IMG/VR virus record: IMGVR_UViG_3300012348_000120
Direction: 5' to 3' (one strand)
Source of the DNA: a virus
Taxonomy: Duplodnaviria > Heunggongvirae > Uroviricota > Caudoviricetes
Length of the DNA: 64,000 bases
The stretch's first letter is position 1, and the number at the start of each line of letters is the position of its first letter. The translations under genes were made by a program, and so were the position numbers. Below, one piece after another: positions 19,013 to 63,945 of the stretch. Under the pieces are notes generated by a model. It saw nothing but the letters and a program-made list of their open reading frames with translations. It ran no database searches and had not been told where the DNA came from.

Positions 19013-20140
19013 TTACATCCCCATCCATATTGCGCACTCATCCCACTTGGTGTTGGTGGTCAAGTGCTTTTCAATATGCTTCAAGATCATTTCGCGGCCA
19101 TCTTTGCCAACAAAACGACCAAACACATACTGCGGAGCAAACGAGTCATTCTTCTGAATCGTGGGCATCCATTCCTGTGCATACCGCTTACGGTCCAGAC
19201 CAGATGCCACAACAGTGTTGTAGTAACGGTCATAACCTTCAATCAAGGAATGCAGACGTTCCGCAAACCGCAGTTCAAAGTTGACGATGCGTTCTTTGGT
19301 GGCATTCGGCAACAAACCAACAGCGTCATCAATCTCTTCGTTCAAGATCAACGAAACGATGTTACGGTCAAACGTTACACGGTCCAACGTCTTGTGAATG
19401 CGGACATACCAGTCGTTTTTGATTTTGATCATATGACCATCAGCAAAGCGAATGATGTCGCCTTCGCGGTTCTCACGCTCACGAGCCTTGGCAATGTAGT
19501 CCGACAAGGATTCGTTTACCGAACCATAAACAGGAACAACATTGAACGGAACATCTTCATTGAACGGAACGTATTCACCAGTCAAGTTGTCACGAATAGC
19601 CAACAGAACCAAGTCTGCGGTTTCATAGGGCAACACAATCTGATTGTCGGGAGCAACATACTCAAAGATAGGAGTTTTGTTGTCGGCAATCATGATTTCA
19701 ATGAACTTGATCCGTTCTTCGTTCAGCAACTTTTCTGCATCTTCTGCAATATCAGTCACGCCCATCTTGGTGCCAAGACGGAACGAACCATTCAGAGGAA
19801 CAGGACGGATCATAGAACCATCCATTTTTTCCATAATGGTATGCGGAGCGGAAATATCAATCTCGTTGGACTGAGTTTCAGGACGTTCATTCACGTTGAA
19901 GAACTTATGAAACGGACGAGAGATCAGTTTGCCTTCTTTGTCGAAAATCAAACCACGACATTCGCGACGAATAGCACCGCCAAGGTCTTCGGGACCAATC
20001 ATATCAAACGTGTCAATCATAGACACGGCATAGTTGATGACAGTATAGTCGCCTTTGTCAGCAACGATAAACTCGTCACGACCTTCAATATGAGGCAACA
20101 CGTCATTGATAGTGCGGATTTCGGGGAACTTATATTTCAT
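19013..20140 (-). CDS. T4 Rnl1-like RNA ligase
   Basis: RECRGLIFD, RPFHKFFN, EKMDGS (KxDG), EGDII, KIKNDWY. Confidence 0.9.
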   Translation of the reverse strand: MKYKFPEIRTINDVLPHIEGRDEFIVADKGDYTVINYAVSMIDTFDMIGPEDLGGAIRRECRGLIFDKEGKLISRPFHKFFNVNERPETQSNEIDISAPHTIMEKMDGSMIRPVPLNGSFRLGTKMGVTDIAEDAEKLLNEERIKFIEIMIADNKTPIFEYVAPDNQIVLPYETADLVLLAIRDNLTGEYVPFNEDVPFNVVPVYGSVNESLSDYIAKARERENREGDIIRFADGHMIKIKNDWYVRIHKTLDRVTFDRNIVSLILNEEIDDAVGLLPNATKERIVNFELRFAERLHSLIEGYDRYYNTVVASGLDRKRYAQEWMPTIQKNDSFAPQYVFGRFVGKDGREMILKHIEKHLTTNTKWDECAIWMGM

Positions 20141-23779: not shown

Positions 23780-25198
23780 TCACTCATAGCGAGACACCAT
23801 TTCAGGTTCAGGTTTGACAACCGCACGTTCACGGATTGCTTCAAACGTATCTTCAAGAATAAGATCACCGTTTTCATACACTGTGCGAAGAACTTTGTCT
23901 TCTTCACGAGCGTTCTTTTCTTCTACAGTTCTGAAACCGCAGCTTCCAAGACCGCATTCATGAACCAGTTCAAGGCGTCCTTTCTTAGAAAGTTTACCTT
24001 TGTCTGTGATAGGGTCTTTGTAAACATCAACCCAAACACCGTTCACAAGTGCAGCAGAACACTTCATCGCAAACTTCTGATCATCGCGTTGTGGAGCACC
24101 AAGTAGAGCACCACCCATACCAAAGGCAACGTTGTCAGCACAGAAACCATTTTCTTTCAGGCTTTCAAGAATAGCCTTGACACTATCTGCATTGATGCCA
24201 TCACCTTGAATGATGCGAACATGATTTAGAAGTTTGTAACCTTTTGCGTTTACAGTTGAACCAAAAGTCTTGTCCAACAGTTTTGCAACTTGTGTAACAA
24301 CCTCAACTGGATCACCAGAGTCGGGACGGACAACAAGAGTTGCACCAGACTTGATTACATCTTCGCGAAGTTCACCACCCCACAGGTTCTCAACAGCGTT
24401 GAAAATATCATAGCTGTCAGAAACAACAGCAAGGATTGACCCAGGTTTAGCGAACTGTTTCAGCATATTTTTGTATGCTTTGACTTCGTTTTCACGACCC
24501 CAAGAGGTGATGGTGCTATGTTCAGCCGCAGGAATAGAGAACCCTGCCATTGGCATTTTGTAGTAGCGTTTTGCGCCAACTACAGCAGCAATAGTATCAG
24601 TCCCCATAAAGCTGACCAAGTGAGCCATACCGCCAAGAGTGGCAGATTCATGCGAAGATGTTCCTCGCGCACCGAAGTCGTGTAGTTTGAAGTTGAGTCC
24701 AGCGAGATCGCCACCAGTTTCAACCATGAACTTCTGAATGATTTTCTTGATTTCACGGCTGGTAGTGGCAACAGTGGTTGGATACCAGATTGCACGAAGC
24801 AATGCAGTTTCCAAGTAGGTGGTCAACCAGAAACACTTTGGGTCAGTGTTTTCAACAGTAACCATTGCGTTGTGAACAGGAATCACAGTTCCTTCAGGCG
24901 CGGCTTTGATGCGAATAGGAAGTTTTCCGCCAAGTTCCTTGACGATGTATTCCCAACCTTCGCGGTTGAATGGTTCACCATGTGCAGTCCAGATTTCTTC
25001 TGCTTCATCAACGTCTGCCATCGTGATTGGTTCAAGCATATATTCTTTGATGAACGCTTGTAGACCGAAGAACACCAGTTCTTTGTATTTTCCGCCACGG
25101 CTTTCAATGTAGCTGAATACAGTTTCTGTATTTTCAGGGTATTGAACGAACATTGACGCTTTGTAGCTGTCGGTGTTTAGTAGTAGATTACTTTTCAT
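23780..25198 (-). CDS. nadV: nicotinamide phosphoribosyltransferase (NAMPT)
   Basis: LLLNTDSYKASM, LHDFGARG, IPAAEHSTITSWG, RPDSGDP, IIQGDGI. Confidence 0.95.
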   Translation of the reverse strand: MKSNLLLNTDSYKASMFVQYPENTETVFSYIESRGGKYKELVFFGLQAFIKEYMLEPITMADVDEAEEIWTAHGEPFNREGWEYIVKELGGKLPIRIKAAPEGTVIPVHNAMVTVENTDPKCFWLTTYLETALLRAIWYPTTVATTSREIKKIIQKFMVETGGDLAGLNFKLHDFGARGTSSHESATLGGMAHLVSFMGTDTIAAVVGAKRYYKMPMAGFSIPAAEHSTITSWGRENEVKAYKNMLKQFAKPGSILAVVSDSYDIFNAVENLWGGELREDVIKSGATLVVRPDSGDPVEVVTQVAKLLDKTFGSTVNAKGYKLLNHVRIIQGDGINADSVKAILESLKENGFCADNVAFGMGGALLGAPQRDDQKFAMKCSAALVNGVWVDVYKDPITDKGKLSKKGRLELVHECGLGSCGFRTVEEKNAREEDKVLRTVYENGDLILEDTFEAIRERAVVKPEPEMVSRYE

Positions 25199-25282: not shown

Positions 25283-25591
25283 TTATGCAGCGGTTGGTCT
25301 GGATTCTTGCCATTCTTTTGTCCACCTTGGCAACTCACGATACCCAACAGGCCAATCATTTAGCCCAATATCAGTTAGTTTGCCGCAGCATGGACACTTG
25401 AACGAAACCGCTGGATCACGACCACCCCAAGTTGGGCTATCGTTTCCTTGAAAATATCGTAGATCATCAAACTCAAGTTCAAGCAATGCTTCACAGCCAT
25501 TGCCGCTATTGCCCCAACCATTACAGCGATGCTGTAACGACCAAGTATTTTTTCCGTTTTTTCCCGCTTCAAGAATCTTCATTTTACTCAC
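25283..25591 (-). CDS. hypothetical Zn-ribbon protein
   Basis: C..C and CPCC motifs. Confidence 0.55.
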   Translation of the reverse strand: MSKMKILEAGKNGKNTWSLQHRCNGWGNSGNGCEALLELEFDDLRYFQGNDSPTWGGRDPAVSFKCPCCGKLTDIGLNDWPVGYRELPRWTKEWQESRPTAA

Positions 25592-26679
25592 CCGATGTTG
25601 ATAAAGTTGTCAATGATGTGAAAGTGATCTTCAAACATCTTTTCTTGCTTCACTTGGTTGAAGGGAACCCAGAATGCTTTCTCAGCATCATCGGAGCCTT
25701 TCACCTTTGGCAACTCGCCTACACCAAGATCAATATGGAATGCTTGCGTAATGGTGCGACCACGAGAAGAACGGTTCGGAGCATCAAAAGTCTTGGAACC
25801 CTTGATAGAACCTTTCAGCACTGGGACAGGAACCTTGATTTTGGTTTCTTCTTTCAATTCACGAATAGCACCATCAAGCATAGTTTCATCTTGGTTCAGG
25901 AAACCGCCAGGGAGCGCCCATTGGCCCTTGCCAGGCATATCCCCACGCTTAACCAGCAGGATGTGGCCAGACTGCACTACAACGGCGTCTACGGTCATAA
26001 AGGTAGGCGGGAAAGGTGCAGCCTTCCATGCTTCCTTATATTTCTTGACCATCTGGTATTCTTGGAATAGAGTCTCAAACCAAGGAGAAACCACACTGTC
26101 TTTCATAATAATAGAGTGCATAGTCTCTACTGCCCGTTTGTTCATAGTTTTAGCAACAAATTGTTCATAAATTTTATGAATAACAGTTGGAAGAATAGTT
26201 GAACTATCAGGAGAAGATGCAAACAGCGCCTCACGAATGTCAGTAGCGTTGATTCCACCGACATCAGGAACTTCAACATGGTTCTTCCATCGAGGGAAGA
26301 TGTTCAAGTAGTAGCTGGTGCTGTCTTTTGAGTGACCAATCAGGCCAACGTCTTGTGCATGAGGAATAGTTTCGTCAACAATCTTCTGGATTGCATTGAC
26401 CCATTTGTTGTCATCATACGGAAAGTCCGAGACGGGAACAATGTGAAGTCGCTTCAACCTTTCATGAAATTTTGCCTTTCCAGTTTCTTCTGGAAACACG
26501 GCTTCAATCATAGCCTTGCGTTCTTGGAATGTAAAGGGATTACGAATATTACGAGCAGCGAAACTTGAGCCTACGACTACAACGACTTCTTTTGCTTGTT
26601 CAAGTGCAGCATCGATAACTGCTTTGTGTCCATTGTGAAACGGCTGGAACCGACCGATAAAAACGAGTGCGTCTCGCAT
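25588..26679 (-). CDS. nadM: bifunctional NMN adenylyltransferase / ADP-ribose pyrophosphatase (NadM-Nudix)
   Basis: IGRFQPFHNGH; Nudix box GGFLNQDETMLDGAIRELKEET. Confidence 0.93.
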   Translation of the reverse strand: MRDALVFIGRFQPFHNGHKAVIDAALEQAKEVVVVVGSSFAARNIRNPFTFQERKAMIEAVFPEETGKAKFHERLKRLHIVPVSDFPYDDNKWVNAIQKIVDETIPHAQDVGLIGHSKDSTSYYLNIFPRWKNHVEVPDVGGINATDIREALFASSPDSSTILPTVIHKIYEQFVAKTMNKRAVETMHSIIMKDSVVSPWFETLFQEYQMVKKYKEAWKAAPFPPTFMTVDAVVVQSGHILLVKRGDMPGKGQWALPGGFLNQDETMLDGAIRELKEETKIKVPVPVLKGSIKGSKTFDAPNRSSRGRTITQAFHIDLGVGELPKVKGSDDAEKAFWVPFNQVKQEKMFEDHFHIIDNFINIG

Positions 26680-59074: not shown

Positions 59075-59194
59075 TGGTGCGTATGGCTGGAGTTGAACCA
59101 GCATGTCACCATGACTCATTCAACCACCGTTGAACTTATGGATTTGAACCACCTTACGTCCGTCGACGTGCGTCTACCATTTCGCCACATACGC
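59075..59194 (-). ncRNA. tRNA-Leu-like RNA without anticodon loop, expanded variable region
   Basis: GCGTATG/CATACGC-A-CCA; D arm TGGCGAAATGGTAGACGC; ACGTC-GACG-GACGT; extra T-like arm. Confidence 0.8.
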
Positions 59195-59387: not shown

Positions 59388-59473
59388 TGGTGTGGGGGGC
59401 TGGATTCGAACCAGCGTTGCTTTTCAGCGCCTGATTTACAGTCAGGTGGTTTCAACCACTCACCCACCCCCAC
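59388..59473 (-). tRNA. second tRNA-Tyr(GUA)
   Basis: Type II cloverleaf, CCA. Confidence 0.95.
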
Positions 59474-59477
59474 AAGA

Positions 59478-59572
59478 ACACAGTGACACTAACCGCTCTG
59501 ACCACTGAGCTACATTGCAGCCATACGCGCCGCAATGGATGGCTTTGAACCACCGACCTGTTGAGTATGTGT
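59478..59572 (-). ncRNA. circularly permuted tRNA-like RNA (YrlA/Y-RNA-like architecture)
   Basis: Order is T arm, looped acceptor stem, D arm; the 5' and 3' ends pair. Confidence 0.7.
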
Positions 59573-59579
59573 ATATTTT

Positions 59580-59668
59580 GTAATGAGTGCTCTATCTGGA
59601 TTCGAACCCTCGGACAGCATCAGCCCTACACCTACCGATCTGCTGATCGGAAAATAGGAGATCATTAC
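59580..59668 (-). ncRNA. T-loop-containing structured RNA
   Basis: GTAATGA/TCATTAC ends; ccgatc-agca-gatcgg; gg-TTCGAAT-cc. Confidence 0.5.
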
Positions 59669-59673
59669 ATAGC

Positions 59674-59756
59674 CCGCACAACCACGAATCGAACGTGTTT
59701 TCGTATCTGAATACATATGGACCGACCACCAAGTAGCTACTATTGGTTGTTGTGCG
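59674..59756 (-). ncRNA. tRNA-like RNA with 8-bp acceptor and tetraloop in the anticodon position
   Basis: CGCACAAC/GTTGTGCG; cacg-TTCGATT-cgtg; gtat-tcag-atac; no CCA. Confidence 0.55.
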
Positions 59757-59801
59757 ATTGATGTTAAGGTTTACCTTGGGTCATTTTAACTTGACATCAA
59801 T

Positions 59802-59936
59802 ATTTCTGTTTTCATCTACACAAAGGATGGATTCGAACCATCGTTTATCCGCACAGGGAATCGAACCCCATCAACTCGCTACCACTCAATGGATAGGTTG
59901 CGCCACCAGCGACCTTGTGTATGTGAAAACAGAAAT
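59802..59936 (-). ncRNA. long-stem RNA with two T-arm modules
   Basis: 14-bp terminal stem; gggg-TTCGATT-ccct and gatgg-TTCGAAT-ccatc. Confidence 0.65.
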
Positions 59937-60004: not shown

Positions 60005-60033
60005 TTTATAGACTGATTCGCTTATAAAGTCAA
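60005..60033 (-). promoter_or_regulatory. sigma70 promoter with CGAATCA at the head of the tRNA array
   Basis: TTGACT-N7-CGAATCA-N3-TATAAA. Confidence 0.85.
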
Positions 60034-60048
60034 CATCTTTTTTCAATA

Positions 60049-60082
60049 AAAAACCCTCCGAAGATTTTCATCTTGGAGGGTT
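60049..60082 (-). terminator. intrinsic terminator
   Basis: aaccctcc-aagat-gaaa-atctt-c-ggagggtt followed by a T-run. Confidence 0.8.
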
Positions 60083-60116
60083 CCTGTGTTCGTTAGAACT
60101 ATATGGATATGTAAGT

Positions 60117-60212
60117 TTACATTCCCATACCAAGACCCTCGCAGCCGCTATACATAAAGCGACCACACCAAGTGCGGCGAATAATCATCTTATGTGTAGA
60201 AGCGGTTTTCAT
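60117..60212 (-). CDS. 31-aa small ORF in a mini transcription unit
   Basis: MKTASTHKMIIRRTWCGRFMYSGCEGLGMGM; AAAGGA RBS; own promoter and terminator. Confidence 0.45.
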   Translation of the reverse strand: MKTASTHKMIIRRTWCGRFMYSGCEGLGMGM

Positions 60213-60248
60213 TGAAAGTCTTAGTCCTTTGTTTATTTCTATTCTCTA

Positions 60249-60277
60249 TATATAACACTATCAGTGTGATTCGTCAA
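60249..60277 (-). promoter_or_regulatory. sigma70 promoter with CGAATCA overlapping the -35 box
   Basis: TTGACG-aatca..-TATATA, 17-nt spacer. Confidence 0.7.
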
Positions 60278-63318: not shown

Positions 63319-63945
63319 TTATGCTACAGATGAATCCTTTACGACTTTTGACACTACCTTATACAAACCTGGATTTACAACAAGTGCTTTTGGCATCAAC
63401 TCATGACGAATAAAGTTTCGCATATACTTCGTATCGCTGTTGCTCTTGTCTTCAATCCAAGAAATACCTTTGCGTTCACACCAATTAACAAACTCAAACT
63501 TACGGTTCATACGAAACGGGCGAATAACATTCATATTGCGATACGGAATGATCTTTCCACATCCATTCAGAGACGACCAAATCCAAGTTTCAGTGCAGTC
63601 ATCCAGATGGTGGCAAGTTACAACTGGCACATCCATACTATGGAAGATTTTGTATCGCTCGTTTCTCCAATGTTCTTCTTGTGAAGTATTTTTTGGAAGG
63701 TCATCACTTGAAATGTAAGTCTTGATAAGACTATCACCAAAAACACCATCAAGAAACTTTTCTGCTTCTTTACTTGTTTCAGTTCCATGATTTACAAATA
63801 GGGGACGGACTGTATGATTGCGACTCAGAAAGTCAACGACTGCCATACTATCAACGCCACCACTACAAGCAACAATCACTTCACGTGGAATTTTACCTTG
63901 GATTTTGATCATATTCGAAACAGTCTTTTCCTGTTTGGTGTTCAA
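63319..63945 (-). CDS. tilS: tRNA(Ile)-lysidine synthetase (short form)
   Basis: VACSGGVDSM, FVNHG, RNERY, TCHHLDDCTET, DKSN...MRNFIRH. Confidence 0.9.
   Translation of the reverse strand: MNTKQEKTVSNMIKIQGKIPREVIVACSGGVDSMAVVDFLSRNHTVRPLFVNHGTETSKEAEKFLDGVFGDSLIKTYISSDDLPKNTSQEEHWRNERYKIFHSMDVPVVTCHHLDDCTETWIWSSLNGCGKIIPYRNMNVIRPFRMNRKFEFVNWCERKGISWIEDKSNSDTKYMRNFIRHELMPKALVVNPGLYKVVSKVVKDSSVA

What the first reader, a model, noticed from the sequence alone, without database searches (positions are those of the whole stretch)
59478..59572. Circularly permuted tRNA-like RNA with Y-RNA (YrlA)-type architecture
Seen (minus): ACAC-ATACT-C-AAC-AGGTC, T arm (ggtgg-TTCAAAG-ccatc), CATTGCG-loop-TGCAATG (acceptor closed by a loop), TA, D arm (GCTC-AGTGGTCA-GAGC), then GTT-AGTGT-CACT-GTGT pairing back to the 5' end. 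Established: bacterial YrlA Y RNAs have a T-acceptor-D permuted module on a terminal Ro60-binding stem and also occur in some phages. No Ro60/TROVE gene lies in this window. It has no CCA and no G3-U70, so it is not two-piece tmRNA.
Basis: partly seen in the sequence, partly recalled or inferred. Interest (0 to 1): 0.7.

Follow-up and report, generated by a model that had tools for sequence, protein, structure and literature searches.

The report
Back-to-front tRNA mimic in phage
A giant uncultured phage carries, inside its tRNA gene cluster, a 95-base RNA gene shaped like a tRNA written in rotated order with its amino-acid end sealed and no anticodon; it resembles bacterial YrlA Y RNAs in layout but lacks their protein-binding signature and partner gene, so it is most likely a non-decoding tRNA look-alike with a different, still unknown partner.

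Summary
On the minus strand, 59572-59478 folds as V loop, T arm, a 7-9 bp loop-closed acceptor hairpin, U8-A9, D arm, then a terminal helix made by the two ends. Every canonical tRNA core nucleotide is present. It lies 4 nt upstream of tRNA-Tyr.

The only relatives I found, two IMG/VR contigs about 90% identical, keep the fold. They show two compensatory pair changes (T and D stems), one U-A to U-G change, and a rewritten acceptor loop.

The YrlA reading is only partly right:
- The layout is YrlA-like, but the Rfam YrlA model gives 26.9 bits (gathering score 69), about what tandem-tRNA junctions give.
- The GNCGAA Ro60 motif is absent; the 5' strand of the helix has no G.
- No TROVE, vWA_Ro60, DUF2828 or DUF7788 gene occurs in the window or in 202 kb of the close relative.

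A pattern survey found about 14 independent permuted tRNA-like elements in viral contigs. They fall into three groups: GNCGAA-like elements directly upstream of Ro60 genes, "ACAGCAA-handle" elements (two of five with a DUF2828 Ro60-like protein), and handle-less elements. One handle-less element sits in a complete 218-kb phage without any such protein. The window's element is handle-less.

Best reading: a Ro60-independent tRNA-body mimic released by tRNA processing. The scan has noted similar phage RNAs on other DNA.

The parts
59478..59572 (-). Whole permuted tRNA-like RNA element (95 nt)
   Evidence: Sequence; MFE fold equals the proposed structure; own covariance model R1 scores 131.6 bits here and 124.2 in L001; weak full-length YrlA hit of 26.9 bits.
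59560..59572 (-). 5' strand of the closing helix (ACAC-AUACU-C-AAC); contains no G
   Evidence: The outer 9 nt are invariant in L001; the CA to AC swap at the bulge shifts the register.
59555..59559 (-). Class-I variable loop AGGUC (positions 44-48, with G46 and C48)
   Evidence: Read; invariant in L001.
59538..59554 (-). T arm GGUGG-UUCAAAG-CCAUC
   Evidence: U-A to G-C compensatory change in L001. L001's version matches the tRNA(CAT) T arm almost perfectly.
59513..59537 (-). Acceptor-like hairpin: CAUUGCG, an 11-nt loop (or 9 bp plus a 7-nt loop), UGCAAUG; no CCA
   Evidence: All 7 pairs are kept in L001, one as U-G; 7 of 11 loop columns differ, including a 2-nt indel.
59511..59512 (-). U8-A9 equivalents
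   Evidence: Read; invariant.
59495..59510 (-). D arm GCUC-AGUGGUCA-GAGC (A14, G15, G18, G19, A21)
   Evidence: The C11-G24 to U11-A24 change in L001 is compensatory. No donor copy was found in the window or in G001.
59478..59494 (-). G26 plus the 3' strand of the closing helix (GUU-AGUGU-[CACU]-GUGU)
   Evidence: One change (U to G) in L001 breaks a pair. The outer 5 bp are recovered by RNAalifold.
59474..59477 (-). UCUU linker to tRNA-Tyr. RNase P cleavage at the tRNA-Tyr 5' end would define the element's 3' end (inference)
   Evidence: tRNA-Tyr is called at 59388-59473; the linker is invariant in L001.
59388..59473 (-). tRNA-Tyr(GUA), immediately downstream on the same strand, with encoded CCA
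   Evidence: ARAGORN; Rfam tRNA, 64.7 bits.
59573..59579 (-). A/U-rich 7-nt linker (AAAAUAU) to the upstream folded module
60005..60033 (-). Promoter-like TTGACT-17 nt-TATAAA, the likely start of the transcript that carries the element (by eye; not called by the consensus scanner)
   Evidence: Sequence, one mismatch to L001 (a spacer base). The scanner requires T at the last -10 position and so does not list it.

Best explanation
The element is a gene for a small non-decoding RNA that mimics the body of a tRNA.

Production:
- It is transcribed with the tRNA operon. This is inferred from the promoter-like site at 60005-60033 and the same-strand array.
- Its 3' end would be set when RNase P cuts the 5' end of the tRNA-Tyr that starts 4 nt downstream.
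- Its 5' end would lie in or near the 7-nt A/U linker.

Shape. It folds into the tRNA L-shape, with the T and D loops forming the elbow and all core tertiary contacts available. It differs from a tRNA in two ways:
- The acceptor end is sealed by a loop.
- The anticodon arm is replaced by a roughly 12-bp irregular helix made by the two RNA ends.

Function:
- It therefore cannot be charged or decode.
- I infer that it acts as a stable decoy or adaptor for a factor that recognises the tRNA body or elbow.
- Unlike a real tRNA, it offers neither an anticodon loop nor a free CCA end for tRNA-directed nucleases or transferases to attack.
- This role would be independent of Ro60.

A possible extra step is RNase P cleavage at the base of the 7-bp acceptor stem (between 59520 and 59519) followed by CCA addition. 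This happens to M. smegmatis YrlA, but it was not tested here.

Shown: the fold, its conservation, and the absence of Ro60 signatures. Inferred: processing, partner and role.
For: Fold and tRNA core nucleotides.

Structure is kept while sequence drifts:
- 5 substitutions fall in the T, D and acceptor stems, and all preserve pairing.
- 7 of 11 acceptor-loop columns changed.
- No donor for the D-arm variant exists in the window or in G001.

Operon context:
- The element abuts tRNA-Tyr by 4 nt, on the strand of all 20 tRNAs.
- 19 of the 20 predicted tRNAs encode CCA; the element does not.

Ro60 signatures absent:
- There is no GNCGAA motif, and the 5' strand has no G (motif definition).
- The YrlA score of 26.9 bits is close to that of tandem-tRNA junctions, 24-25 bits.
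- No ACAGCAA occurs in the tRNA array.
- No TROVE, vWA_Ro60, phrog_850, DUF2828 or DUF7788 gene is in the window's ORFs of 297 aa or more, by tblastn with a phage Ro60, or in G001/G003.

The design recurs:
- A generic descriptor and pattern search find about 14 independent permuted elements in viral contigs.
- One handle-less element fills the gap between tRNA-Arg and tRNA-Lys exactly, in a complete 218-kb phage genome with terminal repeats. That genome has none of these protein families.

Precedent: RNase P and the CCA enzyme accept a YrlA with a 7-bp acceptor stem (Chen et al. 2014, read).
Against: - No expression, end-mapping or binding data exist.
- Only two distinct sequences are known, so covariation is thin. 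The shuffle control is not significant (135 of 500).
- The T-arm change may be a gene conversion from tRNA(CAT).
- The inner closing helix is not conserved in register.
- The element occurs only in this phage lineage. Relatives with 56-68% identical neighbouring genes lack it, so it is young and could still be neutral.
- About 40% of the phage genome and the host were not searched, so a Ro60-family partner cannot be excluded.
- The decoy role is inference only.
Confidence: 0.45

Rival explanations
1. It is a true Y RNA of the YrlA type. The terminal helix would bind a Ro60-family ring protein, either host Rsr or a phage gene in the unseen part of the roughly 350-kb genome, and the tRNA-like domain would recruit an effector such as PNPase.
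For: - The module order is that of YrlA, and YrlA is the best non-tRNA Rfam hit.
- In the four viral contigs of my survey with a Pfam TROVE hit (G005, G009, G014, G016), the permuted element lies directly upstream of that gene on the same strand.
- One of these bona fide neighbours scores only 15.8 bits on the YrlA model, so a low score does not exclude membership.
- A DUF2828-type partner can lie far from its RNA, as in G010.
- G001 is only 56% complete.
Against: - There is no GNCGAAN0-1G or GGUCCGA-like motif in either strand of the helix. The Ro60-adjacent phage elements carry GGCGAAG, GGCGUAG or GGUGAAG.
- There is no ACAGCAA handle.
- T and D stem sequences, near-invariant in YrlA, vary between the window and L001.
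- No Ro60-family gene is in the 64-kb window or in 202 kb of the close relative.
Confidence: 0.2
2. It is a non-functional by-product of recombination in the tRNA array. A tandem duplication of a tRNA(CAT)-like gene lost its outer halves, leaving a 3' half joined to a 5' half, and the remnant has not yet decayed.
For: - The T half of the L001 copy matches the neighbouring tRNA(CAT) almost perfectly (score 24 of 30), and both acceptor stems start UGC.
- The element is confined to one young lineage.
- The tRNA-like core differs between the two copies at about 22% of columns, above the 9-14% of surrounding DNA.
- Neighbouring stretches also hold tRNA-like fragments.
Against: - All 5 stem substitutions preserve pairing. 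The rough chance of that is about 0.001, or about 0.02 if the T arm is set aside (my estimate).
- The acceptor stem is kept although its loop was rewritten.
- The outer helix and linkers carry 2 changes in 34 nt.
- The same architecture recurs independently in many phages, often next to a dedicated protein.
- A remnant would not be expected to gain a 12-bp terminal helix beyond the 5-bp anticodon stem.
Confidence: 0.2
3. It is a precursor of a two-piece, acceptor-ended RNA. RNase P would cut before U at 59519, the loop remnant would be trimmed and CCA added. The result would be a split tRNA-like molecule held together by the closing helix, possibly charged or used by a tRNA-end enzyme.
For: - A 7-bp acceptor stem stacked on a 5-bp T stem is the RNase P measuring unit.
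- M. smegmatis YrlA, which has a 7-bp stem, is cut by RNase P and receives CCA in vivo.
- An earlier scan note reports a CCA enzyme elsewhere in this genome (I did not verify it).
Against: - The helix can extend to 8-9 bp in both copies.
- No CCA is encoded, although 19 of the 20 predicted phage tRNAs encode it.
- The acceptor stem has no known anticodon-independent identity set: no G3-U70, no long variable arm, no G-1.
- There are no data on cleavage.
Confidence: 0.1
4. It is a circularly permuted gene for a real decoding tRNA, matured through a circular intermediate as in Cyanidioschyzon.
For: The 3' half precedes the 5' half, and the phage encodes RNA ligases.
Against: - Joining the ends cannot produce a 5-bp stem with a 7-nt anticodon loop. 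The ends form a roughly 12-bp helix, and the only loop available would be the 11-nt UCUU plus AAAAUAU linkers.
- There is no bulge-helix-bulge motif, and bacteria have no splicing endonuclease (own knowledge).
Confidence: 0.02

Closest known systems
YrlA (Y RNA-like A; Rfam RF02553; Chen et al. 2014, PMC4201824; structure in Wang et al. 2018, 10.1101/312249)
   Same: - The rotated tRNA order is the same: (V), T arm, loop-closed acceptor-like stem, D arm, with the RNA ends forming a stem where the anticodon arm would be.
- The full set of tRNA tertiary-contact nucleotides is present.
- There is no CCA and no anticodon loop.
- YrlA is also known in some phages.
   Different: - It scores 26.9 bits against a gathering score of 69.
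- It has no GNCGAAN0-1G Rsr motif.
- No Ro60 gene lies within 4 kb, or anywhere in the DNA I could search.
- T and D stem sequences are not the conserved YrlA ones and vary between the two copies.
- It has a plain 5-nt variable loop.
- It is embedded in a tRNA operon, 4 nt from a tRNA.
Mycobacterium smegmatis YrlA (Chen et al. 2014)
   Same: Both have a 7-bp acceptor-like stem, the feature that let RNase P cut that RNA and the CCA enzyme extend it in vivo.
   Different: That RNA is bound by Rsr and encoded beside it. Cleavage of the phage element is untested, and its helix can extend to 8-9 bp.
Phage permuted tRNA-like RNAs next to Ro60-family genes. These comprise TROVE-adjacent elements with GGCGAAG-type motifs and 'stem + ACAGCAA' handle RNAs next to DUF2828/DUF7788 proteins. 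They were seen here in IMG/VR contigs and noted repeatedly by this scan; I found no paper on the second group.
   Same: The permuted tRNA-like core is the same, and they are often located in or beside phage tRNA arrays.
   Different: The window's element carries neither handle, and no partner gene was found.
Handle-less permuted element of IMGVR_UViG_3300012956_000001 (locus L070)
   Same: - It has no recognisable handle and is closed only by an anticodon-stem-like helix.
- It fills an inter-tRNA spacer exactly, between tRNA-Arg and tRNA-Lys.
- Its large phage genome has no TROVE, DUF2828, DUF7788 or phrog_850 hit.
   Different: - There is no sequence similarity beyond generic tRNA motifs.
- Its closing helix is 6 bp rather than about 12 bp.
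- Its acceptor stem has one mismatch.
Circularly permuted tRNA genes of red and green algae, and two-piece (permuted) tmRNA
   Same: The 3' half of a tRNA-like fold is encoded upstream of the 5' half.
   Different: - No anticodon loop can be restored.
- There is no encoded CCA, no G3-U70 and no tag reading frame.
- ARAGORN and the Rfam tmRNA_permuted model do not call it.

Membership tests
YrlA (Rfam RF02553) | tRNA-like domain in the order T arm, closed acceptor-like stem-loop, D arm, on a stem formed by the RNA ends | tested here: met
YrlA (Rfam RF02553) | Score at or above the curated gathering threshold (69 bits) | tested here: not met
   26.9 bits in the window and 30.4 bits in L001. The model's outer helices align with non-pairs. 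Tandem-tRNA junctions give 24-25 bits.
YrlA (Rfam RF02553) | GNCGAAN0-1G motif near the 5' end (the proposed Rsr contact; Chen et al. 2014) | tested here: not met
   The 5' strand and linker read AAAAUAUACACAUACUCAAC and contain no G. No such motif occurs in the 3' strand either (definition read).
YrlA (Rfam RF02553) | Encoded within about 4 kb of a Ro60/Rsr (TROVE) gene | tested here: not met
   Neighbouring genes are a PLP decarboxylase, methyltransferases and Sir2. There is no TROVE in the window's ORFs of 297 aa or more, none by tblastn, and none in G001, G002 or G003.
YrlA (Rfam RF02553) | Near-invariant T and D stem sequences (Wang et al. 2018) | tested here: not met
   The T stem is GGUGG/CCAUC, against the consensus GCGGG/CCCGC. 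The D stem GCUC/GAGC matches in the window but is GUUC/GAAC in L001.
YrlA (Rfam RF02553) | Physical binding to Ro60/Rsr | not testable with these tools
   This needs a pull-down or gel shift.
Phage 'stem + ACAGCAA' handle RNAs with a DUF2828/DUF7788 Ro60-like protein (undescribed; scan notes) | Terminal stem followed on the 5' strand by (A)CAGCA(A/G) | tested here: not met
   The motif is absent from the element and from the minus strand of the whole tRNA array. The window holds 10 copies against 12 expected by chance, none at 51.7-63.1 kb.
Phage 'stem + ACAGCAA' handle RNAs with a DUF2828/DUF7788 Ro60-like protein | DUF2828/DUF7788/vWA protein in the same genome | tested here: inconclusive
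   None was found in G001 (56% complete), G002 or G003, nor among the window ORFs scanned with Pfam. The rest of the genome is not available.
Circularly permuted tRNA genes (Cyanidioschyzon type) | Joined ends restore a 5-bp anticodon stem and a 7-nt loop with an anticodon; a bulge-helix-bulge processing motif is present | tested here: not met
   The ends form a roughly 12-bp helix with a C bulge and a CACU loop. No anticodon loop is possible.
Two-piece (permuted) tmRNA | Encoded CCA after the acceptor 3' strand, a G3-U70 pair and a tag reading frame | tested here: not met
   The acceptor 3' strand is followed by GCG. Pair 3-70 is C-G. ARAGORN finds no tmRNA, and tmRNA_permuted does not hit the element.
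Canonical tRNA (RF00005) | Continuous cloverleaf with an anticodon arm and a free acceptor end | tested here: not met
   It is not called by ARAGORN or by Rfam tRNA at any threshold used.

The most novel reading that the evidence does not exclude
Handle-less, circularly permuted tRNA mimics are a separate, Ro60-independent class of phage RNA. They would be cut out of tRNA operons by the host's own tRNA-processing enzymes. They would serve as nuclease-proof copies of the tRNA body that titrate a tRNA-recognising host factor, for example a tRNA-directed defence nuclease or transferase that docks on the elbow or core.

This element and the one in the complete 218-kb phage behind L070 would be the first two members.
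Probability: 0.3. Interest if true: 0.7.

Novelty: new variant of a known kind. Interest (0 to 1): 0.5.

Why it matters
Permuted tRNA mimics are known so far as partners of Ro60 (YrlA). A version that keeps the tRNA body but has neither the Ro60-binding motif nor a Ro60-family gene nearby would show that phages use the sealed tRNA shape for something else.

This phage lineage packs its tRNA operon with other non-decoding look-alikes. That fits a picture in which large phages deploy RNA decoys of the translation apparatus.

The survey made here also gives a practical sorting rule for such elements:
- a GNCGAA-type handle goes with TROVE;
- an ACAGCAA handle goes with a DUF2828-type protein in the two cases where a partner was found;
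- elements with no handle have no partner found, or at most a weak hit.

It also points to a complete genome in which the Ro60-independent case can be tested.

Tried and rejected
- **Two-piece tmRNA.** Rejected: no CCA, no G3-U70, no tag frame, no ARAGORN or Rfam call.
- **Real permuted tRNA gene.** Rejected: no anticodon loop can form.
- **Phage attP copy of a host tRNA 3' half.** Rejected by reasoning: the 3' half is directly paired to a 5' half, no integrase lies nearby, and the genome looks like a lytic jumbo phage.
- **Protein-coding reading of ORF 59510-59716 (68 aa).** Rejected: L001 has a 1-nt indel inside it, and Pfam gives no hit.
- **Long-range pairing of the D arm and 3' strand with the transcript leader**, as in the 527-nt MFE fold. 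Rejected: the D-arm changes in L001 compensate each other, not the invariant leader.
- **Closer relatives.**
  - An exact 25-mer and a 23-mer of the upstream module find only L001/L002 in IMG/VR.
  - The metagenome scan with the neighbouring decarboxylase gave 33 loci, all at or below 69% identity and none with the element.
  - INPHARED phages give no match.
- **My model R1 on 40 loci.** Beyond the two copies it returned only tandem-tRNA junctions plus the L005 element.
- **Whole-genome search of the window's own genome.** No genome is held.
- **Literature.** Burroughs and Aravind 2016 and the Sim et al. 2020 review are not held. A search for DUF2828 found no relevant paper.
- **The GUCCGA hexamer in the upstream invariant module.** It matches 6 of the 7 nt of the vertebrate Ro60 contact GGUCCGA. 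I treated it as chance: one 6-mer in about 500 nt, and no Y_RNA model hit.

Full report
**Setting**

The window is part of a very large uncultured phage.
- It has a ClpA-like protein 45-47% identical to those of PA5oct, Atu_ph07 and Phosso.
- It encodes NAD-salvage enzymes and an Rnl1-type RNA ligase.
- Twenty ARAGORN-predicted tRNA genes lie on the minus strand between 51.7 and 63.1 kb.
- No whole genome is held for it.
- The element lies between tRNA-Tyr (59388-59473) and about 520 nt of non-coding DNA that follows a promoter-like site at 60005-60033.

**The observation**

- a 5' strand ACAC-AUACU-C-AAC;
- a 5-nt variable loop AGGUC;
- a T arm GGUGG-UUCAAAG-CCAUC;
- a hairpin CAUUGCG-loop-UGCAAUG;
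- UA;
- a D arm GCUC-AGUGGUCA-GAGC;
- G;
- a 3' strand GUU-AGUGU-CACU-GUGU that pairs back to the 5' end.

The minimum-energy fold of the 95 nt is this structure, although its stability is not unusual for its composition (z = -1.5). In tRNA numbering the element has U8, A9, A14, G15 with C48, G18-G19, G26, G46, U54-U55-C56 and A58. The whole set of contacts that builds the tRNA elbow and core is therefore available. The element has no CCA, whereas 19 of the 20 predicted tRNAs of the array encode theirs.

**Conservation**

The neighbouring decarboxylase gene led to two IMG/VR contigs, L001 and L002, whose DNA is about 86-91% identical to the window. Both carry the same copy of the element.

The two versions differ at 19 of 107 aligned columns:

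| Region | Columns changed |
|---|---|
| Acceptor loop | 7 of 11 |
| T and D loops | 3 |
| T stem (one compensatory pair) | 2 |
| D stem (one compensatory pair) | 2 |
| Acceptor stem (U-A to U-G) | 1 |
| Bulge and inner closing helix (CA to AC swap) | 2 |
| 5' linker and outer closing helix | 2 of 34 |

The invariant module just upstream and tRNA-Tyr each show one change. All five substitutions in the three tRNA-like stems keep pairing. RNAalifold finds these three helices and the outer closing helix without guidance.

Three caveats apply:
- There are only two sequences, and the shuffle control is not significant.
- L001's T half matches the neighbouring tRNA(CAT) almost perfectly, and the window's T arm resembles one at 59137-59153. 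The T-stem change may therefore be a gene conversion.
- The inner closing helix changes register between the copies.

For the D arm I found no donor copy in the window or in the 202-kb contig of L001.

More distant relatives of the phage lack the element. They share the decarboxylase at 56-68% identity.

**Is it YrlA?**

YrlA is defined by four features (Chen et al. 2014; Wang et al. 2018):
- the permuted tRNA-like domain;
- a 5' GNCGAAN0-1G motif thought to contact Rsr;
- near-invariant T and D stems;
- a position within 4 kb of the Ro60 gene.

The first feature is met. The other three are not.
- The Rfam model gives 26.9 bits here and 30.4 in L001, against a gathering score of 69. The alignment shows that the score comes from the T and D arms, while the model's outer helices are filled with non-pairs. 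Ordinary tandem-tRNA junctions reach 24-25 bits.
- The 5' strand of the helix has no G at all, so the motif cannot be there.
- Pfam scans of the window's ORFs of 297 aa or more find no TROVE. Nor does a tblastn with a genuine phage Ro60.
- Six-frame searches of the relatives' contigs find none either, for TROVE, vWA_Ro60, phrog_850, DUF2828 and DUF7788. These contigs are G001 (202 kb, 56% complete), G003 and G002 (92% complete).

**A survey of the class**

I needed to know what such elements mean in phages. I scanned IMG/VR with two patterns that require a T loop, a gap and a D arm. I then sorted the hits by whether the 7 nt after the T stem pair with the 7 nt before UA.

The split is clean. 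Hits with 7 of 7 pairs (four with 6 of 7) and no ARAGORN tRNA over the T arm or D arm are permuted elements. Hits with 3-6 pairs are tandem tRNAs. A generic descriptor, not tied to my patterns, recovered the same set plus a few more in 848 kb of fetched loci, and only this one in the window.

About 14 independent elements fall into three groups.

| Group | Handle | Protein partner | Members |
|---|---|---|---|
| 1 | GGCGAAG, GGCGUAG or GGUGAAG in G009 and G016 | TROVE gene directly downstream, same strand | G005, G009 (two elements), G014, G016 |
| 2 | Short terminal stem followed by (A)CAGCA(A/G) | DUF2828 + DUF7788 + vWA protein in two of five | L088, L082, L095, L046, L005 |
| 3 | None | None found (one weak hit) | window lineage, L070, L043/L052, L098 |

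Group 1:
- These are YrlA-type by synteny.
- One of them scores only 15.8 bits on the Rfam model, so that model is insensitive to phage variants.

Group 2:
- In G011 the DUF2828-type protein is adjacent to the element.
- In G010 it lies elsewhere in the genome.
- The complete 60-kb G012 has none.
- G006 and G007, which hold L046 and L005, are fragments.
- Earlier notes of this scan describe this handle; I confirmed it only on these few loci.

Group 3:
- L070 fills the gap between tRNA-Arg and tRNA-Lys exactly. Its genome is a complete 218-kb phage with terminal repeats and none of these protein families.
- L098 has only a weak vWA/phrog_850 hit in its contig.

The window's element has neither handle. 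ACAGCAA does not occur anywhere in its tRNA array.

**Reading**

The simplest account is that the element is a functional, non-decoding tRNA-body mimic.
- It would be released from the tRNA operon transcript by the enzymes that mature the flanking tRNA. RNase P at 59473/59474 would give its 3' end.
- It would work through its tRNA-like elbow and core and its conserved terminal helix, not through Ro60.
- Because its acceptor end is looped and it has no anticodon loop, it cannot be charged or decode. It also lacks the two sites most tRNA-directed toxins attack. I therefore favour a decoy or adaptor role, but this step is inference.
- A 7-bp acceptor stem on a 5-bp T stem is also what let RNase P cut M. 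smegmatis YrlA and the CCA enzyme extend it. A split, CCA-ended form is therefore possible.

I give this reading 0.45. The rival readings are:
- A true Ro60-family Y RNA, whose partner is in the host or in the unseen 40% of the genome: 0.2.
- A young recombination remnant of a tRNA(CAT)-like duplication: 0.2.
- An RNase P-split, acceptor-ended RNA as the main product: 0.1.
- A real permuted tRNA gene: 0.02.

**Novelty**

Permuted tRNA mimics bound to Ro60 are known, including in phages (Chen et al. 2014). Jumbo phages with TROVE proteins have been noted as well (Iyer et al. 2021, PMC7824862). This scan has reported similar phage RNAs on other DNA.

What is new here is a variant with no Ro60 signature in a lineage with no detectable Ro60-family gene, together with one independent analogue in a complete genome.

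Noticed in passing
window 59580-59936 (-): Between the promoter-like site and the element lie four more self-contained folded modules that covary with L001.
- A stem ACACAAGG/CCUUUGUGU (UGUAACAA/UUGUUACA in L001) encloses two T-arm-like hairpins, with an interior that is completely different in L001.
- A hairpin at 59755-59800 has 11 bp rewritten but a conserved loop.
- An acceptor-plus-T-arm RNA (CGCACAAC...CACG-UUCGAUU-CGUG-GUUGUGCG) follows.
- An invariant 80-nt module is closed by GUAAUGA/UCAUUAC.
None matches an Rfam family.
   Followed up: partly
window 60117-60212 (-) and 60048-60084 (-): A 31-codon ORF (MKTASTHKMIIRR...) is 100% identical in L001. It has its own promoter-like site (TTGACG...TATATA, about 60245-60275) and is followed by a strong hairpin plus U-run terminator. 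It gives a weak His_leader-like hit (22.7 bits, E = 0.27).
   Followed up: no
L088 1-1221 and 1373-1600 (contig G011 41106-42700): A DUF2828 + DUF7788 + vWA protein (Ro60-like) is followed directly by a permuted tRNA-like RNA and a second small RNA. Both carry a GGAC...-stem plus ACAGCAA handle. I found no paper on this pairing.
   Followed up: partly
L079 5000-5540 (-) (contig G009, about 19400-19970): Two tandem permuted tRNA-like elements and a further small RNA lie upstream of a TROVE gene. They share a GGCG(A/U)AG...G(G/U)UACUUCA motif, a phage version of the YrlA Rsr motif.
   Followed up: partly
L003 8077-8826: A relative of this phage (decarboxylase 65% identical) carries a GOLLD RNA (197 bits) and a manA-like RNA (43.9 bits, below its gathering score) inside its tRNA array.
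   Followed up: no
L001 11163-12272: The close relative has a roughly 1.1-kb insertion between the decarboxylase gene and the non-coding RNA region that is absent from the window.
   Followed up: no
window 59590-59650 (-): The invariant upstream module contains GUCCGA, which is 6 of the 7 nt of the vertebrate Ro60 contact GGUCCGA. It also contains a T-loop-like GGGUUCGAAUCC without a proper T stem. I judged the hexamer a chance match.
   Followed up: partly
window 19013-20140 (-), 23780-25198 (-), 25588-26679 (-), 63319-63945 (-): The window encodes an Rnl1-type RNA ligase, NAMPT, an NMNAT-Nudix fusion and a TilS-like PP-loop protein. This is host-takeover and tRNA-repair-type equipment typical of jumbo phages.
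   Followed up: no
L005 345-418: There is a sub-threshold tmRNA model hit (32.7 bits, gathering score 47) in the tRNA array of another phage contig that also has a permuted element.
   Followed up: no
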